In this document: piece by piece, positions 5,613 through 61,244 of the stretch
How positions within the stretch are numbered: position 1 is the stretch's first letter
Layout of the letters: every line of letters starts with the position of its first letter
Assembly: GCA_963768275.1 (NCBI GenBank)
Contig: CAVYHH010000003.1
Span: forward strand, 44,810 to 108,809
DNA: 64,000 bases
Direction: 5' to 3'
Source: an uncultured Acidobacteriota bacterium
Lineage (GTDB): Bacteria > Acidobacteriota > Terriglobia > Acidiferrales > UBA7541
Notes under the pieces: model-generated
Seen by the model: only the letters and a program-made list of their open reading frames with translations
Database searches by the model: none
Told to the model about the DNA's origin: nothing
Position numbers and translations under genes: made by a program

Positions 5613-6490
5613 AAATCCTTCCATGAGAAGGCCGGTTAGTGTCAAGACGGTTTTGTAGTTGCCTTTGGTCGTCGAGTGGTCTTGCTTAGAACCGAGCCGC
5701 CTCTGTCGCCATCCTTCCATCCGCACTCTTTGGTGAGCGATCTTCGCTCGGTGCAAGTTGGGTGTTCTCGTTTCAGTAGGTGCTGCTACCTGAGAATCGA
5801 CCTCTTCTCCCACCGATTCGGTGAGAGTTGGGCCCCAGGATTTAGTCGCAGTCACCTGGGCTCGGCGGTTGAGCTCGGCTGTCGGGATCGCAACTCTCTA
5901 GGCCACTTCCCGCATCGCTTTCTGGCTATTGCGCGGTGGTTCGTACACCTCTCCGCCTACCCACAACCGATGCAGCAGTACCGCCAGCTTTCGAGCCACG
6001 GCCACAACCGCTCGCTTCTTGGCATTTTTTCCTCCTCGCTCCGCAAGCTTGCGCCCCCATCTCCGCAGATCAATGTCTTCTCCAAAAGGTCCCAGAATGT
6101 AATGCGCTCCCTGCACCATCATCGTCCGCAGATACCGGTCTCCTTCTTTGCTGATGCCCTTCTGGGGTTCGCTCTGGCCAGAGTTCCTGCGTCCAGGTCG
6201 TAACCCCAGAAAACAGCCGACCTGGCGACTCTTCGGAAACCGATACGAGTCCTCGATCGTCAGGACATACGTCAGTGCGATCTGTGTTCCCACACCCTTC
6301 ACCTGCTTGAGCAAGGACACTTCCGGGTACACTTGCTTGGCGATTTTCTCCATCCGTTCGTCGTATTCCTTGACGCGCTCGTTCAGCGATTCGATTTCTT
6401 TCAACAGCGGTACCAGAACCTCGCGCAACTCCGCGCTCAATCCCTCGGCCAGCTTCTCGCTCACCTGATCCGGCCTTCTCATCCCATCTG
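5613..6490 (-). mobile_element. internally deleted, diverged relative of the IS110-family element (non-autonomous)
   Basis: It has both ends: right ..catggaaggattt, left cagatgggatgagaaggccgg. The 3' arm is homologous to the full IS. The left end is fused directly to mid-transposase sequence, so about 190 N-terminal codons are missing. Confidence 0.8.
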
Positions 6491-6521
6491 AAAAACGCGC
6501 TTGCCGGTAAATGACCGACAT
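5898..6521 (-). pseudogene. truncated IS110-family transposase (C-terminal Transposase_20 half only)
   Basis: The 207-aa ORF aligns with residues from about 195 to 384 of the full transposase at roughly 80 percent identity by eye (LKEIESLNERVKEYDE.., VKGVGTQIALTYV, RPGRRNSGQS). The first 20 codons read through the IS left end and the flank. The DEDD domain is absent. Confidence 0.85.
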
Positions 6522-6562: not shown

Positions 6563-7636
6563 ATGAATCGTCGATTTGCACTGCTATTGGTGATTACCGC
6601 GGCGCTTGGAGTTGGGGCGCTTCACGTTCTTGCGCAACAGTCGGCCAACTCGAGGCAGGATGGGCAGGCCAACCCCTCGGCCGATCCCGATGCCGACCGC
6701 AGCAATGCCGGAACCGCGCAGTTCCCGCTCGCAGCGCCCGCCGGCAAGGACTCCGGCGCGGTCACCAAAGCGCCGGCGGGGGCCGTCAATGGGGGAACAG
6801 TCGACGAGAAGACCTGGAAATACGGCCACCGATTCGATCCGCCGCCGAATGCAAAGATCTGGAACCCGGTAAAGCTCAAGATGATGCGCGGCGAGAAGGT
6901 GACCGGCGGAACGGTCTCGGCAGCCTCCGATCCGTCCACCTACTGTGCCATGGCGAATGCGGGTTATGACTTCATCTGGACGGAAATGCAGCACAGCCCG
7001 CGCGAGTGGGAGAATGTGGCCAAAATGTGGCAGGCCTGCCCGCATGCGAAAGCGGTGCCCGGAGTTCGCGTCGCCTATGCAAATGAGCGTGAAATTCAGC
7101 ATGCCATGGATGAGGGCGCGCTCGTCGTGGTGATTCCCACCGTTCGAACGTTCGAGGAAGGCGTCGCCGGGAGAGACTGGACTTATTTCCCGCCGCTCGG
7201 CAAGCGCAGCCAGGGAGCCGGACAGGCGTATTCCGCCGCGTTCTGGGGCAACGTTCCGGGCGGTTATCGCAATACCATCAATCAAAACGTGGTGCTGATC
7301 GAGATGATCGAGACCGTCGGCGGCGCGGCGCAGGCCCGCGAGATCGCGGGCATTCCAGGGGTAGACGCGTTATTTGCAGCCAGCTCGGACCTCGGCAATT
7401 TTTCCGGGTACAAACAGGGCGATCCCGATTACGAGCGCCTGATCAACGTGGTGCATGACGCCGCGCTCGCCGCCGGCAAGCGCCTGTGCGGCCCGTTCGC
7501 GTGGCTCGATCGCCCCGACTTCACCTGCTTCCAGAACGGCAGCGAAACGGCGGCGATCGAAAGGGGCGTGGCCACAGAGCTTGGATCTCTGAAAGACACG
7601 CAAGGCAAACCTGAAGTCGGACCGTACGCCAAGTGA
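6563..7636 (+). CDS. HpcH/HpaI aldolase/citrate-lyase family protein with N-terminal signal peptide and low-complexity linker
   Basis: A 357-aa ORF with AAGGAG upstream. The signal peptide is MNRRFALLLVITAALGVGALHVLA. An Ala/Pro/Gly/Asp-rich linker of about 70 aa follows. The core is AGYDFIWTEMQHSP, GVRV, VVVIPTV, LIEMIET and ASSDL. Confidence 0.75.
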   Translation: MNRRFALLLVITAALGVGALHVLAQQSANSRQDGQANPSADPDADRSNAGTAQFPLAAPAGKDSGAVTKAPAGAVNGGTVDEKTWKYGHRFDPPPNAKIWNPVKLKMMRGEKVTGGTVSAASDPSTYCAMANAGYDFIWTEMQHSPREWENVAKMWQACPHAKAVPGVRVAYANEREIQHAMDEGALVVVIPTVRTFEEGVAGRDWTYFPPLGKRSQGAGQAYSAAFWGNVPGGYRNTINQNVVLIEMIETVGGAAQAREIAGIPGVDALFAASSDLGNFSGYKQGDPDYERLINVVHDAALAAGKRLCGPFAWLDRPDFTCFQNGSETAAIERGVATELGSLKDTQGKPEVGPYAK

Positions 7637-7698
7637 TGTAGACTCTCTCTCTCACCGTGGCACAAGAAGTCGGGCACGTGACTCCCACAAGGCGCAAA

Positions 7699-7724
7699 AG
7701 CCACATTTCGAGAAGGCGACTTCT
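7699..7724 (+). repeat. REP-like head abutting the IS copy 2 left end
   Basis: Sequence agccacatttcgagaaggcgacttct, immediately followed by the IS (cagatgg..). Confidence 0.75.
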
Positions 7725-7763
7725 CAGATGGGATGAGAAGGCCGGTCTCCGACGGGATGCGAT

Positions 7764-8918
7764 ATGCTCCCAACGATTGACGCGCTCAAGGCGCAATGGA
7801 AAGGAGACCGGCTTATGCGAAAGAATAGCACTGTGGTGAAAAACGGAAACAAAATTTTCAAACAGCCCGCACTGACCATCGGGTTGGACTTGGGAGATCG
7901 AAGCAGCTGTTACTGCGTTTTGGATGAGATGGGGAATGTGATTTTGGAACGCAGTGTGCCGACCACACCGAACGGAATCCGCCAGGCGTTCGGTAAGATG
8001 CCGCGCTGCCGGATCGCACTGGAAACGGGAACGCACTCGCCGTGGGTGAGCCGGCAGTTGGCACGGATGGATCACGAAGTGATCGTAGCGCATGCGCGCA
8101 ACGTGCGGCTGATTGGCGAGAGCAGTCGCAAGGATGATCAGCTCGACGCGCGGACGCTGGCGCGGCTCGCACGGATCGATCCCGGCTTATTGGGTCCAGT
8201 GCGGCATCGCAGTGCGCAGGCGCAAATTCAACTGACAGTGATTCGCGCACGAGCGGCGCTGGTCAGTTCGCGCACGGCTCTAGTGAATGCGGCGCGCGGG
8301 TTGACGAAATCCTATGGCGAGCGGCTGAAGAAATGCGGCACGGAGCAAATGAATCGAGACAGCTCCGAGGGGTTGAGCCAGGAATTGCGTGAGGCGCTGG
8401 ATCCGCTGTTGCGAGAGATCGAATCGCTCAACGAGCGCATCAAGGAATACGATCAGCGGATCGAACAGATCGCCAAGGAAGTTCACCCTGAAGTGGCGCG
8501 GCTGAAACAAGTGAAGGGTGTGGGGACGCTGATTGCGTTGACCTACGTGTTGACGCTGGACGATCCACGCCGATTTCGTCACAGCCGCGATGTGGGATGT
8601 TTTCTGGGACTGCGTCCCGGGCGCAGGAACTCCGGCAAGAGCGAGCCGCAACTGCACATCAGCAAGGAAGGCGACCGTTATCTGAGAACGCTGATGGTGC
8701 AAGGCGCGCATTACATTCTCGGGCCTTTTGGACAGGACAGCGATCTGCGGCGTTGGGGATGGAAGCTGGCCGAGCGCGGAGGAAAAAATGCCAAGAAGCG
8801 AGCGGTGGTTGCCGTCGCACGCAAGTTGTCGGTCCTGCTGCACAAGTTGTGGGTGAGCGGAGAAGCGTATGAACCACTGCGCAACAACAACCACCAAGGG
8901 GTACGCGCCGTGGCCTAG
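7764..8918 (+). CDS. IS110-family transposase
   Basis: Translation identical to the other three copies. An alternative SD-supported start is at 7815. Confidence 0.95.
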   Translation: MLPTIDALKAQWKGDRLMRKNSTVVKNGNKIFKQPALTIGLDLGDRSSCYCVLDEMGNVILERSVPTTPNGIRQAFGKMPRCRIALETGTHSPWVSRQLARMDHEVIVAHARNVRLIGESSRKDDQLDARTLARLARIDPGLLGPVRHRSAQAQIQLTVIRARAALVSSRTALVNAARGLTKSYGERLKKCGTEQMNRDSSEGLSQELREALDPLLREIESLNERIKEYDQRIEQIAKEVHPEVARLKQVKGVGTLIALTYVLTLDDPRRFRHSRDVGCFLGLRPGRRNSGKSEPQLHISKEGDRYLRTLMVQGAHYILGPFGQDSDLRRWGWKLAERGGKNAKKRAVVAVARKLSVLLHKLWVSGEAYEPLRNNNHQGVRAVA

Positions 8919-9191
8919 AGGTTGAAACGAAAGAGCCGAGCTCACCGCCGAGTTCAGGTGACTGCGCCCAAGTCCTGGCCCAACTCTCAGAGATGAGAGC
9001 CAAGGTCGATTCTCAGGTAGCAGCACCTACTGAATGAAGGACGCCCAACTTGCACCGAGCGAAACAATCGCTCACCAAAGAGTGCGGATGGAAGGATGGC
9101 GACAGAGGCGGACCGGCTTAAACGGCAAAAACCCCTGATAAGAAAAAGAAAAACCGGCTTGACACTAACCGGCCTTCTCATGGAAGGACTT
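8919..9191 (+). ncRNA. candidate bridge/seek-type guide RNA region in the IS 3' arm (copy 2)
   Basis: A non-coding arm between the transposase stop and the right end. It contains ccaagtcctg (8968-8977, reverse complement of REP tail caggacttgg), ttctcagg (9010-9017, sense copy of the left half-site) and atggaagga (9088-9096, copy of the IS terminus at 9180-9188). Local hairpins lie at 8984-8999 and 9056-9074. Blocks are conserved or variable relative to the deleted relative. Confidence 0.35.
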
Positions 9192-9683
9192 TGCGCGAAT
9201 AGTGTTGGAGCTGTTTGACGAATCGGCTGATCGCATGTATCTGCGAAACCGCTTGTGCATGTATGTACTGTCGGCCCACCAACCACCGAAAACCAAGATA
9301 CAAACGGGTATCGTGATTTCGATGACGAGGATTCCAAGATCATTCAAAATCGAAAATCCTCTCTGGTGATTTAAAAAATAAACCCATTCGGACTGTTTAG
9401 ACGCGCATGCGAGGAGAACGGCCAGGCAAGACACCACGATTACGTAGTTTGCAGGGGAGAGTTTACGAGATGCGCTCCGCCATACAAGCATTCCGTACGC
9501 TGCCACGATGGCCCCTATCACAATTTCGGCACAGAAGAATGCATCGTCCATTTTGAACGGCTGGAGAGTAAAAATACCTCCCGGCGAGTCGAGGCCGAAC
9601 CAGGTAAGACCCTGTGAGAAGAACAAAACACTAGTTCCTAGTAGTTTTTTCCCTTGCTCAGCCTGATAGTAGTTTGTTGTCAT
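9165..9683 (-). CDS. hypothetical membrane protein (C-terminal 8 codons supplied by the IS right end)
   Basis: A 172-aa ORF with several hydrophobic helices in an AT-rich segment. Codons KSFHEKAG plus the stop (9165-9191) lie inside the IS. Confidence 0.55.
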   Translation of the reverse strand: MTTNYYQAEQGKKLLGTSVLFFSQGLTWFGLDSPGGIFTLQPFKMDDAFFCAEIVIGAIVAAYGMLVWRSASRKLSPANYVIVVSCLAVLLACASKQSEWVYFLNHQRGFSILNDLGILVIEITIPVCILVFGGWWADSTYMHKRFRRYMRSADSSNSSNTIRAKSFHEKAG

Positions 9684-9861: not shown

Positions 9862-9890
9862 CTCCCGAGAAACGATTTTCAGGACTTGGG
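9862..9890 (+). repeat. REP-like unit with intact (unoccupied) tail caggacttgg
   Basis: Sequence ctcccgagaaacgattttcaggacttggg. The 10-mer caggacttgg lies at 9880-9889. Confidence 0.7.
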
Positions 9891-10634: not shown

Positions 10635-10661
10635 CCTAACTGGAATGCACCAAGTCTTGAT

Positions 10662-10688
10662 AAGTTCGTCTTCTCGGAATGTGCCCGC
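10662..10688 (-). repeat. REP-like unit
   Basis: Sequence aagttcgtcttctcggaatgtgcccgc, the reverse complement of gcgggcacattccgagaagacgaactt. Confidence 0.65.
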
Positions 10689-10949
10689 AGAGCTTACTCC
10701 CACCTTTGCTCACGCTTTACCCCCTTTGCACAGTTTGCAAAACCGATGACCGCAGTTTTGACAGACCTGCGTGAACTTACGTGTCCGCTTTCCGCATTTG
10801 CAGCATTTCAATTGGGTCACTTTTTGCCCACGCGATGTTCAGCCCTTTATCGAAAAAGGCAATACTGGAGCTGGTGAATTGATACGTGATACCGATCCGA
10901 TTCTCATTCGGGCGGTACCTCCGCACTCACTTTACACCCGCAATGGAAG

Positions 10950-11035
10950 CCAAGTCCCGTGAAGTCGCCTTCTCGGAATCTGGTTTTTGGGCTGATTCCC
11001 AGTTACCGAGAACCCCGTTTTCGGAATGTGGCCTG
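10950..11035. repeat. cluster of three REP-like units
   Basis: 10950-10989 is minus-oriented (reverse complement aaaaaccagattccgagaaggcgacttcacgggacttgg). 10994-11014 is plus-oriented (gattcccagttaccgagaacc). 11013-11035 is minus-oriented (ccccgttttcggaatgtggcctg). Confidence 0.7.
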
Positions 11036-12056: not shown

Positions 12057-12254
12057 CGCCGCCCGCATTATGCATTAGGTTCCGGCCCGCCGCGCTTTTC
12101 TTCGCATGCGTGCATTCGCGAGTGCCCGCATCGCCATCCGAACCGAAAATTTCCTAGTGCGGGTCCAGAACGCCAAGTCCCGAAGAACGGAATTATGGAA
12201 TGTGGCCCACTTTACATCGAGGTGGAATTCCCATATTCCGATAAGAAGCCTTCT
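12057..12254 (+). repeat. about 200-bp degenerate repeat module A (contains an inverted REP pair)
   Basis: It aligns with 12737-12935: cgccgcccgca(t/c)tatgca(t/a)taggttcc.., ccgaaccgaaaatttcct, cagaacgccaa(g/c)tc(c/g)cgaagaacgg. It ends in a REP head (gaattcccatattccgataagaagccttct). Confidence 0.65.
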
Positions 12255-12736: not shown

Positions 12737-12935
12737 CGCCGCCCGCACTATGCAATAGGTTCCAGCCTGCCGCGGTCGTCCTCGCAGGTTCTAGTGGAGA
12801 TGTGACCGCATGACCACCCGAACCGAAAATTTCCTGGAGCGTCTTCAGAACGCCAACTCGCGAAGAACGGGACTACCGGAAGACGGCCTAGTTGACATCC
12901 TGGTGAGATTCCCACATTCCGATAAGACGACCTCC
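12737..12935 (+). repeat. about 200-bp degenerate repeat module B
   Basis: A direct repeat of 12057-12254, roughly 75 percent identical by eye. It ends in the REP head gattcccacattccgataagacgacctcc. Confidence 0.65.
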
Positions 12936-16868: not shown

Positions 16869-17208
16869 CGTTATTTCTCCTTGCTTCCCAAGCGCCAGAC
16901 CTTAAGCGATCCGGCGCGCCCCGCACATCCTACTACTACCTTGGGGGTCGTGCCAAATAAGTGCACAATGAAAAGCTTCAGGTGCGTGGAGAGTCCTTAA
17001 AAAAGCGGAGCGCGTCGAGTTTAAAAGAAATGCGGTCAACTTCATCTTTCTGGCTAGGGCCGAGGGTTGTTGCCCCCTAATGGATTGCTCGCACACTGCA
17101 CCAAGATTAGGAGTCGAGCTTCAGAGTTGCCCAAGTCCCGAGAAACGGGATGATCGACAGGTGAGAATTGGAACTGTTACTCGGAACACGGAAAGAAATT
17201 TCTATTTC

Positions 17209-27575: not shown

Positions 27576-27598
27576 CCGCCCCGTTTCGCAGGACTTGG
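27576..27598 (+). repeat. REP-like tail with intact caggacttgg
   Basis: Sequence ccgccccgtttcgcaggacttgg. The 10-mer lies at 27589-27598. Confidence 0.6.
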
Positions 27599-30435: not shown

Positions 30436-30474
30436 CAGATGGGATGAGAAGGCCGGTCTCCGACGGGATGCGAT

Positions 30475-31629
30475 ATGCTCCCAACGATTGACGCGCTCAA
30501 GGCGCAATGGAAAGGAGACCGGCTTATGCGAAAGAATAGCACTGTGGTGAAAAACGGAAACAAAATTTTCAAACAGCCCGCACTGACCATCGGGTTGGAC
30601 TTGGGAGATCGAAGCAGCTGTTACTGCGTTTTGGATGAGATGGGGAATGTGATTTTGGAACGCAGTGTGCCGACCACACCGAACGGAATCCGCCAGGCGT
30701 TCGGTAAGATGCCGCGCTGCCGGATCGCACTGGAAACGGGAACGCACTCGCCGTGGGTGAGCCGGCAGTTGGCACGGATGGATCACGAAGTGATCGTAGC
30801 GCATGCGCGCAACGTGCGGCTGATTGGCGAGAGCAGTCGCAAGGATGATCAGCTCGACGCGCGGACGCTGGCGCGGCTCGCACGGATCGATCCCGGCTTA
30901 TTGGGTCCAGTGCGGCATCGCAGTGCGCAGGCGCAAATTCAACTGACAGTGATTCGCGCACGAGCGGCGCTGGTCAGTTCGCGCACGGCTCTAGTGAATG
31001 CGGCGCGCGGGTTGACGAAATCCTATGGCGAGCGGCTGAAGAAATGCGGCACGGAGCAAATGAATCGAGACAGCTCCGAGGGGTTGAGCCAGGAATTGCG
31101 TGAGGCGCTGGATCCGCTGTTGCGAGAGATCGAATCGCTCAACGAGCGCATCAAGGAATACGATCAGCGGATCGAACAGATCGCCAAGGAAGTTCACCCT
31201 GAAGTGGCGCGGCTGAAACAAGTGAAGGGTGTGGGGACGCTGATTGCGTTGACCTACGTGTTGACGCTGGACGATCCACGCCGATTTCGTCACAGCCGCG
31301 ATGTGGGATGTTTTCTGGGACTGCGTCCCGGGCGCAGGAACTCCGGCAAGAGCGAGCCGCAACTGCACATCAGCAAGGAAGGCGACCGTTATCTGAGAAC
31401 GCTGATGGTGCAAGGCGCGCATTACATTCTCGGGCCTTTTGGACAGGACAGCGATCTGCGGCGTTGGGGATGGAAGCTGGCCGAGCGCGGAGGAAAAAAT
31501 GCCAAGAAGCGAGCGGTGGTTGCCGTCGCACGCAAGTTGTCGGTCCTGCTGCACAAGTTGTGGGTGAGCGGAGAAGCGTATGAACCACTGCGCAACAACA
31601 ACCACCAAGGGGTACGCGCCGTGGCCTAG
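30475..31629 (+). CDS. IS110-family transposase
   Basis: An identical 384-aa translation. An alternative start is at 30526. Confidence 0.95.
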   Translation: MLPTIDALKAQWKGDRLMRKNSTVVKNGNKIFKQPALTIGLDLGDRSSCYCVLDEMGNVILERSVPTTPNGIRQAFGKMPRCRIALETGTHSPWVSRQLARMDHEVIVAHARNVRLIGESSRKDDQLDARTLARLARIDPGLLGPVRHRSAQAQIQLTVIRARAALVSSRTALVNAARGLTKSYGERLKKCGTEQMNRDSSEGLSQELREALDPLLREIESLNERIKEYDQRIEQIAKEVHPEVARLKQVKGVGTLIALTYVLTLDDPRRFRHSRDVGCFLGLRPGRRNSGKSEPQLHISKEGDRYLRTLMVQGAHYILGPFGQDSDLRRWGWKLAERGGKNAKKRAVVAVARKLSVLLHKLWVSGEAYEPLRNNNHQGVRAVA

Positions 31630-31902
31630 AGGTTGAAACGAAAGAGCCGAGCTCACCGCCGAGTTCAGGTGACTGCGCCCAAGTCCTGGCCCAACTCTCA
31701 GAGATGAGAGCCAAGGTCGATTCTCAGGTAGCAGCACCTACTGAATGAAGGACGCCCAACTTGCACCGAGCGAAACAATCGCTCACCAAAGAGTGCGGAT
31801 GGAAGGATGGCGACAGAGGCGGACCGGCTTAAACGGCAAAAACCCCTGATAAGAAAAAGAAAAACCGGCTTGACACTAACCGGCCTTCTCATGGAAGGAC
31901 TT
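31630..31902 (+). ncRNA. candidate bridge/seek-type guide RNA region (copy 3)
   Basis: Identical to 8919..9191. Confidence 0.35.
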
Positions 31903-33356: not shown

Positions 33357-33629
33357 AAGTCCTTCCATGAGAAGGCCGGTTAGTGTCAAGCCGGTTTTTC
33401 TTTTTCTTATCAGGGGTTTTTGCCGTTTAAGCCGGTCCGCCTCTGTCGCCATCCTTCCATCCGCACTCTTTGGTGAGCGATTGTTTCGCTCGGTGCAAGT
33501 TGGGCGTCCTTCATTCAGTAGGTGCTGCTACCTGAGAATCGACCTTGGCTCTCATCTCTGAGAGTTGGGCCAGGACTTGGGCGCAGTCACCTGAACTCGG
33601 CGGTGAGCTCGGCTCTTTCGTTTCAACCT
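33357..33629 (-). ncRNA. candidate bridge/seek-type guide RNA region (copy 4)
   Basis: Identical to 8919..9191 (reverse complement). Confidence 0.35.
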
Positions 33630-34784
33630 CTAGGCCACGGCGCGTACCCCTTGGTGGTTGTTGTTGCGCAGTGGTTCATACGCTTCTCCGCTCACCCACA
33701 ACTTGTGCAGCAGGACCGACAACTTGCGTGCGACGGCAACCACCGCTCGCTTCTTGGCATTTTTTCCTCCGCGCTCGGCCAGCTTCCATCCCCAACGCCG
33801 CAGATCGCTGTCCTGTCCAAAAGGCCCGAGAATGTAATGCGCGCCTTGCACCATCAGCGTTCTCAGATAACGGTCGCCTTCCTTGCTGATGTGCAGTTGC
33901 GGCTCGCTCTTGCCGGAGTTCCTGCGCCCGGGACGCAGTCCCAGAAAACATCCCACATCGCGGCTGTGACGAAATCGGCGTGGATCGTCCAGCGTCAACA
34001 CGTAGGTCAACGCAATCAGCGTCCCCACACCCTTCACTTGTTTCAGCCGCGCCACTTCAGGGTGAACTTCCTTGGCGATCTGTTCGATCCGCTGATCGTA
34101 TTCCTTGATGCGCTCGTTGAGCGATTCGATCTCTCGCAACAGCGGATCCAGCGCCTCACGCAATTCCTGGCTCAACCCCTCGGAGCTGTCTCGATTCATT
34201 TGCTCCGTGCCGCATTTCTTCAGCCGCTCGCCATAGGATTTCGTCAACCCGCGCGCCGCATTCACTAGAGCCGTGCGCGAACTGACCAGCGCCGCTCGTG
34301 CGCGAATCACTGTCAGTTGAATTTGCGCCTGCGCACTGCGATGCCGCACTGGACCCAATAAGCCGGGATCGATCCGTGCGAGCCGCGCCAGCGTCCGCGC
34401 GTCGAGCTGATCATCCTTGCGACTGCTCTCGCCAATCAGCCGCACGTTGCGCGCATGCGCTACGATCACTTCGTGATCCATCCGTGCCAACTGCCGGCTC
34501 ACCCACGGCGAGTGCGTTCCCGTTTCCAGTGCGATCCGGCAGCGCGGCATCTTACCGAACGCCTGGCGGATTCCGTTCGGTGTGGTCGGCACACTGCGTT
34601 CCAAAATCACATTCCCCATCTCATCCAAAACGCAGTAACAGCTGCTTCGATCTCCCAAGTCCAACCCGATGGTCAGTGCGGGCTGTTTGAAAATTTTGTT
34701 TCCGTTTTTCACCACAGTGCTATTCTTTCGCATAAGCCGGTCTCCTTTCCATTGCGCCTTGAGCGCGTCAATCGTTGGGAGCAT
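33630..34784 (-). CDS. IS110-family transposase
   Basis: An identical 384-aa translation. An alternative start is at 34733. Confidence 0.95.
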   Translation of the reverse strand: MLPTIDALKAQWKGDRLMRKNSTVVKNGNKIFKQPALTIGLDLGDRSSCYCVLDEMGNVILERSVPTTPNGIRQAFGKMPRCRIALETGTHSPWVSRQLARMDHEVIVAHARNVRLIGESSRKDDQLDARTLARLARIDPGLLGPVRHRSAQAQIQLTVIRARAALVSSRTALVNAARGLTKSYGERLKKCGTEQMNRDSSEGLSQELREALDPLLREIESLNERIKEYDQRIEQIAKEVHPEVARLKQVKGVGTLIALTYVLTLDDPRRFRHSRDVGCFLGLRPGRRNSGKSEPQLHISKEGDRYLRTLMVQGAHYILGPFGQDSDLRRWGWKLAERGGKNAKKRAVVAVARKLSVLLHKLWVSGEAYEPLRNNNHQGVRAVA

Positions 34785-34822
34785 ATCGCATCCCGTCGGA
34801 GACCGGCCTTCTCATCCCATCT

Positions 34823-61220: not shown

Positions 61221-61244
61221 CCAAGTCCTGAGAAGTCGTGCCCC
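61221..61244 (-). repeat. REP-like unit with a perfect unoccupied IS target
   Basis: Sequence ccaagtcctgagaagtcgtgcccc. The reverse complement ..gacttctcaggacttgg contains both ttctcagg and caggacttgg. Confidence 0.7.

What the first reader, a model, noticed from the sequence alone, without database searches (positions are those of the whole stretch)
8919..9191. The 273-nt 3' arm of the IS carries guide-like matches to its own insertion site: candidate bridge/seek RNA programmed for a REP tail
Seen directly: the element has a 39-nt 5' arm, a long 273-nt 3' arm and 14-bp subterminal inverted repeats (7733-7746 / 9168-9181). This is the IS1111-type layout within the IS110 family. All four insertions reconstruct to ..TTC(T/A)CAG|GACTT(G).., the tail of a host REP-like repeat. 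The 3' arm contains three matching segments. (1) ccaagtcctg (8968-8977) is the exact reverse complement of the REP tail caggacttgg, which also occurs unoccupied at 9880, 27589, 29072 and 61221. (2) ttctcagg (9010-9017) is a sense copy of the left half-site plus core. (3) atggaagga (9088-9096) is a copy of the IS right terminus (9180-9188). A pair of target segments, one antisense and one sense and overlapping at a core, plus a donor-end copy, is what is expected of the bispecific guide RNAs described in 2024 for the IS110 family (the IS621 bridge RNA and the IS1111/IS110 seekRNA). For the IS1111 group that RNA lies 3' of the recombinase. Inference: this arm encodes such an RNA, with the REP tail as its programmed target. 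Caveats: I could not fold the RNA, ttctcagg can also be drawn into a local hairpin (9011-9033), and the antisense segment could in principle be a captured REP tail.
Basis: partly seen in the sequence, partly recalled or inferred. Interest (0 to 1): 0.85.

Follow-up and report, generated by a model that had tools for sequence, protein, structure and literature searches.

The report
IS1111-type insertion sequence guide RNA
The non-coding tail of this acidobacterial insertion sequence almost certainly encodes the guide ("bridge" or "seek") RNA that IS110/IS1111 elements use to choose their insertion site, so it is a well-supported new example of a mechanism described in 2024, not a new mechanism.

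Summary
All three sequence matches are at the stated coordinates.

The recombinase is an IS110-family protein (Pfam PF01548 and PF02371; NCBIfam "IS110 family RNA-guided transposase"). The element has the IS1111 layout: 14-bp subterminal inverted repeats, 7-bp and 3-bp terminal extensions, a long 3' non-coding arm and no target duplication.

I compared 77 insertions from the window and 33 Acidobacteriota MAGs.
- The antisense segment (8968-8977) and the sense segment (9010-9017) lie on the two sides of one internal loop, closed by an invariant stem.
- Both change base for base with the right and left flanks. At right-flank position 3 there are 71 matched pairs against 6 mismatched (p=8e-16). 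The guide bases changed at least 10 and 16 times on the transposase tree. The match also holds between IS variants inside one genome.
- The third segment lies in a second loop and tracks a G-to-A change in the IS right end in one clade.

Segment order (top-strand complement first) and overlap at a 2-nt core (AG) match published IS1111 seekRNAs.

The target is the end of a short intergenic repeat. Only some copies are clearly palindromic.

No expression data exist. Verdict: interpretation supported; new member of a known kind; modest interest.

The parts
7726..9186 (+). IS copy holding the finding. The span includes the ambiguous AG core at both ends. Under the IS1111 convention the element is 7726-9184, 1459 bp.
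   Evidence: Ends found. The same termini, ATGGGAT.. and ..ATGGAAG, occur in 73 related loci.
7733..7746 (+). Left subterminal inverted repeat, ATGAGAAGGCCGGT. The 7-bp extension AGATGGG lies outside it.
   Evidence: The core GAGAAGGCCGG is invariant in the family.
9168..9181 (+). Right subterminal inverted repeat, ACCGGCCTTCTCAT. The 3-bp extension GGA lies outside it.
7815..8918 (+). Recombinase gene, 367 aa. An alternative upstream ATG lies at 7764. The protein has DEDD/RuvC-like and Transposase_20 domains and the motif GLRPGRRNSG.
   Evidence: Pfam PF01548 and PF02371. NCBIfam NF033542, 231.6 bits against a cut-off of 140. PDB IS621 transposase, E=8.8e-6. Shine-Dalgarno AAGGAG at 7801-7806.
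8933..9119 (+). Predicted bridge/seek RNA module, about 187 nt. An outer stem (8933-8938 with 9114-9119) encloses two stem / internal loop / hairpin arms.
   Evidence: RNAalifold consensus on 48 distinct sequences. 97.6% of cells are paired, against 29-51% when partners are slid. The outer stem shows compensatory CG/GC and CG/UA changes. Conservation falls off outside this block.
8957..8965 (+). 5' strand of the basal stem of the target-binding loop (GGTG-A-CTGC). It pairs with 9020-9027 (GCAGCACC).
   Evidence: Invariant in all 48 sequences. Also paired in the single-sequence fold.
8968..8977 (+). Guide 1, ccaagtcctg, on the 5' side of the loop. It is complementary to the top strand of the core plus right half-site (C-AG-GACTTGG).
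   Evidence: Watson-Crick match in 88-100% of 77 insertions for positions L3 to R5. Base opposite R3: G:C 40, C:G 31, mismatched 6, p=8e-16. The truncated copy adds a third state, A:T. At least 10 changes on the tnp tree.
8977..9007 (+). Distal stem (GGCC with GGTC) and hairpin (CTCTCA-GAGA-TGAGAG) that separate the two guides.
   Evidence: helices 5 and 6. The hairpin sequence differs between lineages but stays paired.
9010..9017 (+). Guide 2, ttctcagg, on the 3' side of the loop. It is a sense copy of left half-site + core + G, so it would pair with the bottom strand.
   Evidence: Identical to the left flank at 68-100% per position. The variants TTCTC, TAATC, TTATC, TTCAC, TTACC and TACAC each sit next to matching flanks. 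At least 16 changes on the tree. Within-genome test.
9044..9051 (+). 5' strand of the putative donor-binding loop, CCCAACTT. It is close to the reverse complement of A-AG-ATGGG (core plus IS left end), with one mismatch at left-end position 1.
   Evidence: Sequence reading. This position is A or C, never T, in every relative. No informative covariation.
9086..9096 (+). 3' strand of the putative donor-binding loop, GGATGGAAGGA.
   Evidence: A clade whose right end is ATAGAAG carries GGATAGAAGG here.
9160..9165 (+). TTGACA, a -35-like hexamer. Seventeen nt downstream, the circle junction would create GAAG|AT.
   Evidence: CTTGACA is conserved in almost all relatives. No sigma-70 promoter was found in the linear IS. 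Junction sequence. This is an inference from the family's known junction promoters (PMC11187229).
2732..4192 (-). Identical IS copy.
30437..31897 (+). Identical IS copy.
33362..34822 (-). Identical IS copy.
5618..6487 (-). Truncated relative. Both ends and the whole RNA module are intact, but about 600 bp coding for the DEDD domain are deleted. Its guide 1 reads ctaaatcctg and its flanks are TTTTCAG | GATTTGG.
61221..61234 (-). Unoccupied perfect target, TTCTCAGGACTTGG. It shows that insertion adds no duplication.

Best explanation
Window 8933-9119 encodes an IS1111-type bridge/seek RNA of about 187 nt, read on the same strand as the recombinase gene.

How it most likely works (steps 1, 4, 5 and 6 are inferred from published work on this family; step 3 is weakly shown here):
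1. It is probably made as the 3' part of the tnp transcript, driven by a promoter formed when the IS circularises, and is then bound by the IS110-family DEDD recombinase.
2. It has two arms. In the first, an invariant stem holds open an internal loop. (The comparative data show this step, as an inference from sequence.)
[quoted passage not shown] - Both sides cover the dinucleotide core AG of the target TTCTC-AG-GACTTGG.
3. The second arm (9044-9051 and 9086-9096) reads the joined IS ends, ATGGA-AG-ATGGG, in the same mirrored way.
4. The recombinase then exchanges strands at the core.
5. The element lands in one orientation, without duplication, 7 bp inside the end of a short intergenic repeat.
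6. Single-base changes in the loop retarget the element to the repeat variant of its host genome.
For: Family membership:
- Pfam PF01548 and PF02371.
- NCBIfam 'IS110 family RNA-guided transposase', 231.6 bits against a cut-off of 140.
- Distant match to the IS621 transposase structure.
- sTIR, 7/3-bp extensions and a long 3' arm (criteria).

Guide-flank covariation over 77 insertions, 29 guide haplotypes and 33 MAGs:
- Base opposite R3: 40 G:C, 31 C:G, 6 mismatched, p=8e-16.
- Permuting flanks among insertions never reached the observed match counts. Guide 1: 663 observed against a maximum of 644. Guide 2: 555 against 516 (5000 permutations).
- At least 10 and at least 16 independent changes on the tnp tree.
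- In the three MAGs that hold two guide-1 states, 15 of 17 insertions pair correctly (p=0.022). In the three MAGs with more than one guide-2 variant, left flanks match their own guide 2 at 4.47 of 5 positions, against 3.20 for the other variants in the same MAG.
- The truncated copy in this window adds a third matched state, A:T.

Strand: rU:dG is the commonest non-Watson-Crick pair (47 cases), and G-U pairs are frequent in the helices. Both fit an RNA read from the + strand.

Structure:
- Consensus fold with 97.6% of cells paired, against 29-51% when partners are slid.
- Compensatory changes in the outer stem.
- Stems are invariant and guide positions variable.

Donor loop: a G-to-A change in the right end (ATAGAAG) is mirrored in the RNA (GGATAGAAGG) in one clade.

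Literature: segment order and overlap match published IS1111 seekRNAs. Bridge RNAs were predicted in the right end of 93% of IS1111 elements.
Against: - There is no transcript, processing or binding evidence.
- No Rfam 15 family matches, so no independent model confirms the RNA.
- Most helices never vary, so structural covariation is modest: 5 pairs have changes on both sides.
- The single-sequence fold is only marginally better than shuffles (z=-1.89).
- The donor loop rests on one clade-level substitution, and other end variants are not mirrored: ATGAGAT in L061 and L063, ATGGAGG in L012.
- About 8% of insertions mismatch at the key guide position.
- The -10 element of the inferred junction promoter is weak.
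Confidence: 0.88

Rival explanations
1. The arm encodes only a short seekRNA, the first arm at about 8951-9035. The atggaagga segment and its loop are scaffold, or a chance resemblance, and the IS ends are recognised by the protein through the subterminal repeats.
For: - The published predominant IS1111 seekRNAs are 70-100 nt and only target matches were described for them.
- Here the donor-side segments are almost invariant, so they give little covariation.
- Left-end variants ATGAGAT and ATTGGAT and right-end variant ATGGAGG are not mirrored in the RNA.
- Both donor strands mismatch left-end position 1.
Against: - A 9-nt copy of the right end inside a 268-nt arm is expected about 0.001 times by chance (my estimate, 268 positions divided by 4^9).
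- The ATAGAAG / GGATAGAAGG pair covaries in a clade of at least six loci.
- The second arm mirrors the first in layout: top-strand complement on the 5' side, sense copy on the 3' side, and CT and AG opposite the core.
- Durrant et al. report donor-binding nucleotides in IS1111 bridge RNAs.
Confidence: 0.25
2. The target-like segments are passive: captured pieces of the repeat or of old flanks, with no guiding role. The recombinase protein chooses the target.
For: The antisense 10-mer alone could be a captured repeat end. The reverse strand of the arm reads ..GGGCCAG|GACTTGG.
Against: - Two segments in opposite senses sit on the two sides of one loop in an otherwise invariant scaffold.
- They change independently, each tracking its own flank, across many lineages and within single genomes.
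- The four identical IS copies have different flanks, so the flanks are not carried along with the element.
- Mismatches are enriched for rU:dG wobble.
Confidence: 0.03
3. The conserved 3' arm is a regulatory 3' UTR, terminator or antisense-control element for the recombinase gene, and has nothing to do with targeting.
For: - The arm is structured and conserved.
- A terminator-like hairpin is called on the minus strand at 9177-9149.
Against: This does not explain complementarity to both strands of the insertion site, or its covariation with the flanks. Terminator-like calls in the region are no more frequent than in shuffles (2 found, 2.0 expected).
Confidence: 0.04

Closest known systems
IS1111-family seekRNAs (ISEc11, ISPa11, ISKpn4, ISPst6; Siddiquee et al. 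2024, PMC11187229)
   Same: - The RNA is encoded in the long non-coding region downstream of tnp.
- The top-strand complement lies 5' of the bottom-strand match, and the two overlap in the target.
- Subterminal inverted repeats with 7-bp and 3-bp extensions, and no target duplication.
- Natural retargeting by changes in the loop.
- ISPa11 also targets a REP.
   Different: - The named relatives found on plasmids share at most 37% amino-acid identity.
- The host is Acidobacteriota.
- The target sequence is different (TTCTC-AG-GACTTGG).
- The protein is 367 aa, against 330-350 aa reported for the family.
- Nothing here has been tested experimentally.
IS621 bridge RNA (Durrant et al. 2024, PMC11208160; Hiraizumi et al. 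2024, PMC11208158)
   Same: - Two internal loops, one for the target and one for the donor.
- Each loop has two guides that read opposite strands and both cover a 2-nt core.
- The recombinase is homologous (PDB 8wt6, E=8.8e-6).
- The RNA size is in the 150-250 nt range.
   Different: - The RNA is at the 3' end of the element, not the 5' end.
- Guide order within each loop is reversed: in IS621 the 5' side reads the bottom strand.
- The core is AG, not CT.
- The sTIR is long.
- I could not recognise an IS621-style handshake dinucleotide.
REP-targeting IS110-family elements (IS621 in E. coli, ISPpu9 and ISPpu10 in P. putida, ISPa11 in P. aeruginosa)
   Same: Orientation-specific insertion at a fixed position in short intergenic repeats. 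Several copies per genome.
   Different: The acidobacterial repeats are of several sequence types, and only a minority fold as clear hairpins.
ISAzs32 (Azospirillum), one of six elements with a bridge RNA predicted by Durrant et al.
   Same: It is the only named IS among the listed plasmid hits (34% aa identity). Its left end also starts ATGGGG and follows ..CAGGACAG.
   Different: I saw no similarity between its 3' arm and this one. Its arm is longer, about 470 nt.

Membership tests
IS110 family (DEDD recombinase) | N-terminal DEDD/RuvC-like domain plus C-terminal Transposase_20 domain | tested here: met
   PF01548 E=1.9e-17 and PF02371 E=3.8e-18. NF033542, 231.6 bits against a cut-off of 140.
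IS1111 group | Subterminal inverted repeats, usually 11-13 bp and near-perfect | tested here: met
   Perfect 14-bp repeat at 7733-7746 and 9168-9181. An 11-bp core is conserved in 73 loci.
IS1111 group | Asymmetric terminal extensions, 7 bp on the left and 3 bp on the right | tested here: met
   With the ambiguous AG assigned to the left end, the extensions are AGATGGG (7 bp) and GGA (3 bp) (criterion).
IS1111 group | The longer non-coding region lies downstream of tnp | tested here: met
   The 3' arm is about 268 nt. The 5' arm is 36-87 nt.
IS1111 group | C-terminal motif GL-P----S(t)G | tested here: met
   GLRPGRRNSG in the translation (motif).
IS1111 group | Orientation-specific insertion without target duplication | tested here: met
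   Left flank plus right flank reconstruct the contiguous free site TTCTCAGGACTTGG. All 77 insertions have the same orientation relative to the asymmetric motif.
IS1111 group | Circular intermediate with a junction promoter | not testable with these tools
   Only a conserved TTGACA, with a junction-formed GAAGAT 17 nt downstream.
Bridge/seek RNA | Two short segments complementary to opposite strands of the target, overlapping at the core | tested here: met
   8968-8977 is antisense and 9010-9017 is sense; they overlap at C-AG-G. Both arose together in 1 of 5000 shuffles.
Bridge/seek RNA | Guides lie in an internal loop of a conserved structure | tested here: met
   The structure is predicted, and most stems are invariant.
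Bridge/seek RNA | Guide-target covariation across relatives (natural reprogramming) | tested here: met
Bridge/seek RNA | A second loop complementary to the donor (the joined IS ends) | tested here: inconclusive
   The 5' strand matches the core plus left end in 7 of 8 positions. The 3' strand copies the right end plus core over 7 nt, and its next base is G, not the left end's A. One covarying substitution in one clade. Other end variants are not mirrored.
Bridge/seek RNA | The RNA is expressed, binds the recombinase and is required for transposition | not testable with these tools
   No expression or biochemical data are available.
Bridge/seek RNA | Match to a curated covariance model | tested here: not met
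   No Rfam 15 family hit at gathering score in the window, and none relevant at E<=10 in 7600-9400. I do not know whether Rfam holds a model for IS1111-type RNAs, so this only means there is no independent confirmation.
REP (repetitive extragenic palindromic) target | Short repeat present in many copies | tested here: met
   Ten free sites within 2 mismatches of the target, against 0.37 expected. The conserved left context extends about 30 nt.
REP (repetitive extragenic palindromic) target | Extragenic | tested here: met
   Nearly all occupied and free sites lie in gaps between ORFs of 150 aa or more. The exceptions are ORFs I judged spurious, and ORF 9165..9683, which overlaps the IS right end by about 20 nt. 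No gene prediction was run.
REP (repetitive extragenic palindromic) target | Palindromic (hairpin-forming) | tested here: inconclusive
   A strong hairpin lies upstream of the copy at 30439 (z=-3.4). Only 17% of 77 left contexts have z<-2.

The most novel reading that the evidence does not exclude
The truncated relative at 5618-6487 has lost the catalytic half of its recombinase gene but keeps both ends and a complete RNA module with a different guide (it reads GATTT, not GACTT). It could act as a guide-RNA parasite. The recombinase of the four full-length copies would mobilise it in trans, and its RNA could load onto that recombinase and redirect it to a second class of repeat ends in the same genome.
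Probability: 0.12. Interest if true: 0.5.

Novelty: new member of a known kind. Interest (0 to 1): 0.3.

Why it matters
The finding places RNA-guided IS110/IS1111 recombination in Acidobacteriota, a phylum that is poorly studied genetically.

It also gives a clean natural data set: 77 insertions and 29 guide haplotypes. That set shows single-base retargeting, tolerance of rU:dG wobble, and co-existing variants with different specificities in one genome.

In practice this is a compact candidate for an orthogonal programmable recombinase: a 367-aa protein, an RNA of about 187 nt, a defined 14-nt target and an AG core.

It does not change the understanding of the mechanism, which was established in 2024.

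Tried and rejected
- **Rfam 15.** I searched the region at E<=10 and the whole window at gathering scores. The only hit was Poribacteria-1 at 8750-8902 (19.9 bits, gathering score 74.2, E=1.5), inside the coding region. I judged it chance.
- **Promoter and terminator scan of the linear IS**. No promoter was found, and terminator-like calls were at the background rate.
It pairs poorly, and 9020-9027 is taken by the invariant basal stem in both the single-sequence and the consensus folds. Both strands are invariant, so covariation cannot decide this.
- **Flanks as part of the element.** Rejected. Four identical copies have different flanks, and contiguous empty sites exist.
- **Captured-REP idea.** Rejected on the covariation.
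- **ISAzs32 and a Bradyrhizobium relative**. I looked for a shared RNA scaffold and saw no similarity in the 3' arms.
- **IS621-style handshake dinucleotides.** The bases 3' of the CU in the two top-strand guides do not fit the published pattern consistently.
- **Palindromy of the target context.** The signal is weak.
- **Not run.** I did not run the large protein searches or build a covariance model, because the 80 genome loci already answered the question.

Full report
**Observation.**
- ccaagtcctg is at 8968-8977.
- ttctcagg is at 9010-9017.
- atggaagga is at 9088-9096 and again at the IS end, 9180-9188.
- A perfect 14-bp inverted repeat lies at 7733-7746 and 9168-9181.

The IS termini occur four times as left/right pairs. 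The four copies are identical over 1461 nt. Their flanks differ slightly: TTCACAG|GACTTGA, TTCTCAG|GACTTTG, TTCTCAG|GACTTGA and TTCTCAG|GACTTGG.

CAGGACTTGG occurs 8 times against 0.08 expected. In 5000 dinucleotide shuffles of the arm, an antisense match of 10 nt or more together with a sense match of 8 nt or more arose once.

- The likely start codon is ATG 7815, preceded by AAGGAG at 7801-7806. The 5' arm is then 87 nt.
- The element ends at 9184-9186, not 9191.
- The crossover point is ambiguous over AG. The target is TTCTC-AG-GACTTGG and the joined IS ends are ATGGA-AG-ATGGG.
- A fifth right end belongs to a truncated relative at 5618-6487 on the minus strand.

**The element.** The ORF carries Pfam DEDD_Tnp_IS110 and Transposase_20. 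It scores 231.6 bits (cut-off 140) on NCBIfam NF033542, "IS110 family RNA-guided transposase". It matches the solved IS621 transposase distantly (E=8.8e-6).

The named relatives found on plasmids share at most 37% identity. They include an ISAzs32-family transposase at 34%.

If the ambiguous AG is assigned to the left end, the terminal extensions outside the 14-bp repeats are 7 bp and 3 bp. These are the values given for IS1111-family elements. The long non-coding region is downstream of the gene, and the motif GLRPGRRNSG fits GL-P----SG.

**Relatives.** One scan of the genome collection returned 80 loci from Acidobacteriota MAGs, at 74-96% protein identity. The subterminal repeats and the termini ATGGGAT.. 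and ..ATGGAAG are conserved in 73 of them. With the four window copies this gives 77 insertions with defined flanks.

**Guide-flank covariation.** In the alignment of the 3' arms, an invariant pair of strands, GGTGACTGC and GCAGCACC, brackets a loop.
- The 5' side of the loop reads (A/C)C(T/C)AA(G/C)TCCTGG.
- The 3' side reads (A/C)T(TCT/AAT/TAT/TCA/TAC/ACA)CAGG.

The 5' side is the reverse complement of the right flank. The base opposite right-flank position 3 is G with C in 40 insertions, C with G in 31, and mismatched in 6 (p=8e-16). The 3' side is a sense copy of the left flank. TTCTC, TAATC, TTATC, TTCAC, TTACC and TACAC each sit next to the matching flank.

Controls:
- Permuting flanks among insertions never reached the observed match counts in 5000 trials.
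- On a neighbour-joining tree of the recombinase genes, the guide-1 base changes at least 10 times and the guide-2 tetranucleotide at least 16 times. The signal is therefore not one inherited event.
- In the three MAGs that hold two guide-1 states, 15 of 17 insertions pair correctly (p=0.022).
- One MAG (CAVTEE) holds three variants, each in a perfectly matching site: TAATC with AAC, TTACC with AAG, and TACAC with AAC.
- The truncated copy in the window adds a third state. Its guide is ctaaAtcctg and its flank is GATTTGG.

The commonest non-Watson-Crick combination is RNA U opposite DNA G, with 47 cases. That fits an RNA read from the + strand.

The four identical window copies have different flanks, and a contiguous perfect site is free at 61221-61234. 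The flanks therefore come from the target and are not carried by the element.

**Structure.** RNAalifold on 48 distinct sequences gives an outer stem enclosing two arms, each a stem, an internal loop and a hairpin.
- The outer stem pairs 8933-8938 with 9114-9119, and a CCGCC/GGCGG stem follows it.
- 97.6% of cells are paired, against 29-51% when partners are slid.
- Changes on both sides of a pair are concentrated in the outer stem (CG 25 / GC 13, and CG 34 / UA 8) and in the distal hairpin. Most other pairs never vary and so say nothing either way.
- Column entropy is near zero in the stems and highest at the guide positions, the hairpin and the outer stem.
- The single-sequence fold shows the same first arm, but it is only marginally more stable than shuffles (z=-1.89).

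**Second loop.** The 5' side, CCCAACTT (9044-9051), is the reverse complement of A-AG-ATGGG except opposite the first base of the left end. The 3' side, GGATGGAAGG (9086-9095), is the right end plus core followed by G.

In a clade whose right end reads ATAGAAG, the RNA reads GGATAGAAGG. Other end variants are not mirrored, so I rate the donor loop as probable, not shown.

The G after the core equals the first base of the right target half. It recalls the handshake idea described for IS621, but I could not map the two onto each other.

**Comparison with the literature.**
- Siddiquee et al. found the seekRNA downstream of tnp in IS1111 elements. Its top-strand complement comes before the bottom-strand match, and the two overlap in the target. 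They also describe natural retargeting.
- Durrant et al. predicted bridge RNAs in the right end of 93% of IS1111 elements. [quoted passage not shown]

The element here follows the IS1111 pattern in every respect that I could test. Insertion into REP sequences is also known for IS621, ISPa11 and ISPpu9.

**The target.**
- The left context of the insertions is conserved for about 30 nt. Nothing is conserved beyond +7 on the right. The IS therefore lands 7 bp inside the end of a repeat.
- At least four sequence types of left context occur.
- The window has ten free sites within two mismatches of the target, against 0.37 expected. Nearly all lie in gaps between long ORFs.
- Hairpins are clear in some copies (z=-3.4 upstream of 30439). 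Only 17% of left contexts fold clearly better than shuffles.

'REP-like' is a fair label, but 'palindromic' is not established.

**Limits.**
- Nothing here shows transcription, processing or protein binding.
- No Rfam model matches.
- No sigma-70 promoter is called inside the linear element.
- A conserved TTGACA at 9160-9165 would face a junction-formed GAAGAT 17 nt downstream after circularisation. This fits the family's known junction promoters, but it is an inference.

**Verdict.** This is a new, phylogenetically distant member of a kind described in 2024. It is not a new variant of the mechanism. Its main value is a natural covariation data set and a candidate orthogonal recombinase/RNA pair.

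Noticed in passing
window 5618-6487 (-): Relative of the IS, about 870 nt, with both ends and a complete RNA module. About 600 bp coding for the DEDD domain are deleted. Its guide is different (ctaaatcctg) and it sits at TTTTCAG|GATTTGG. A 207-aa ORF (5898..6521) reads into it from the flank.
   Followed up: partly
window 7764-7817: The longest ORF starts at ATG 7764. AAGGAG at 7801-7806 sits 8 nt before ATG 7815, and relatives align from there. The protein is probably 367 aa, not 384.
   Followed up: partly
window 9159-9186 joined to 7728-7733: CTTGACA is conserved in almost all relatives. After circularisation, a 17-nt spacer leads to GAAG|AT, a weak -10 that exists only at the junction.
   Followed up: partly
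window 9044-9051 and 9086-9096: Both strands of the putative donor loop avoid pairing with the first base of the left end (A). They specify G instead, which is the first base of the right target half. This may be a handshake-like feature on the opposite side of the core from IS621.
   Followed up: partly
window 61221-61234 (-), 9876-9889, 27585-27598, 17131-17144 (-) and six more: Ten unoccupied sites lie within two mismatches of the 14-nt target (0.37 expected). One is perfect. Nearly all are in gaps between long ORFs.
   Followed up: yes
window 12057-12253 and 12737-12934: A segment of about 200 nt is duplicated 680 nt apart at 75-84% identity. It includes a copy of the repeat type that hosts the IS, but with a tail that does not match the guides. 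Neither copy is occupied.
   Followed up: partly
window 10650-10702 and 10950-11001: Repeat copies here carry an inverted target-like motif (CCAAGTC..) at their 5' end. Some repeats may therefore offer a site on each strand.
   Followed up: no
L047, L057, L058 (one MAG), left of position 2418: The three insertions share more than 1 kb of near-identical left flank, and that flank does not match guide 2. The IS there abuts another repeated element, or it moved as part of a larger unit.
   Followed up: partly
L073:2413-2420: The left terminus reads TTCGAGG, not ATGGGAT, and the left flank is unrelated to the target. This is probably a rearranged or truncated left end.
   Followed up: no
L047-L050, L057, L058, L061-L064: These relatives are 1580-1690 bp long. 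In L047 and L057 the RNA module starts about 95 nt later after tnp, and all of them have a longer purine-rich stretch after the RNA module.
   Followed up: no
window 8750-8902 (+): Weak Rfam hit to Poribacteria-1 (19.9 bits against a gathering score of 74.2, E=1.5), inside the recombinase coding region. Judged chance.
   Followed up: yes
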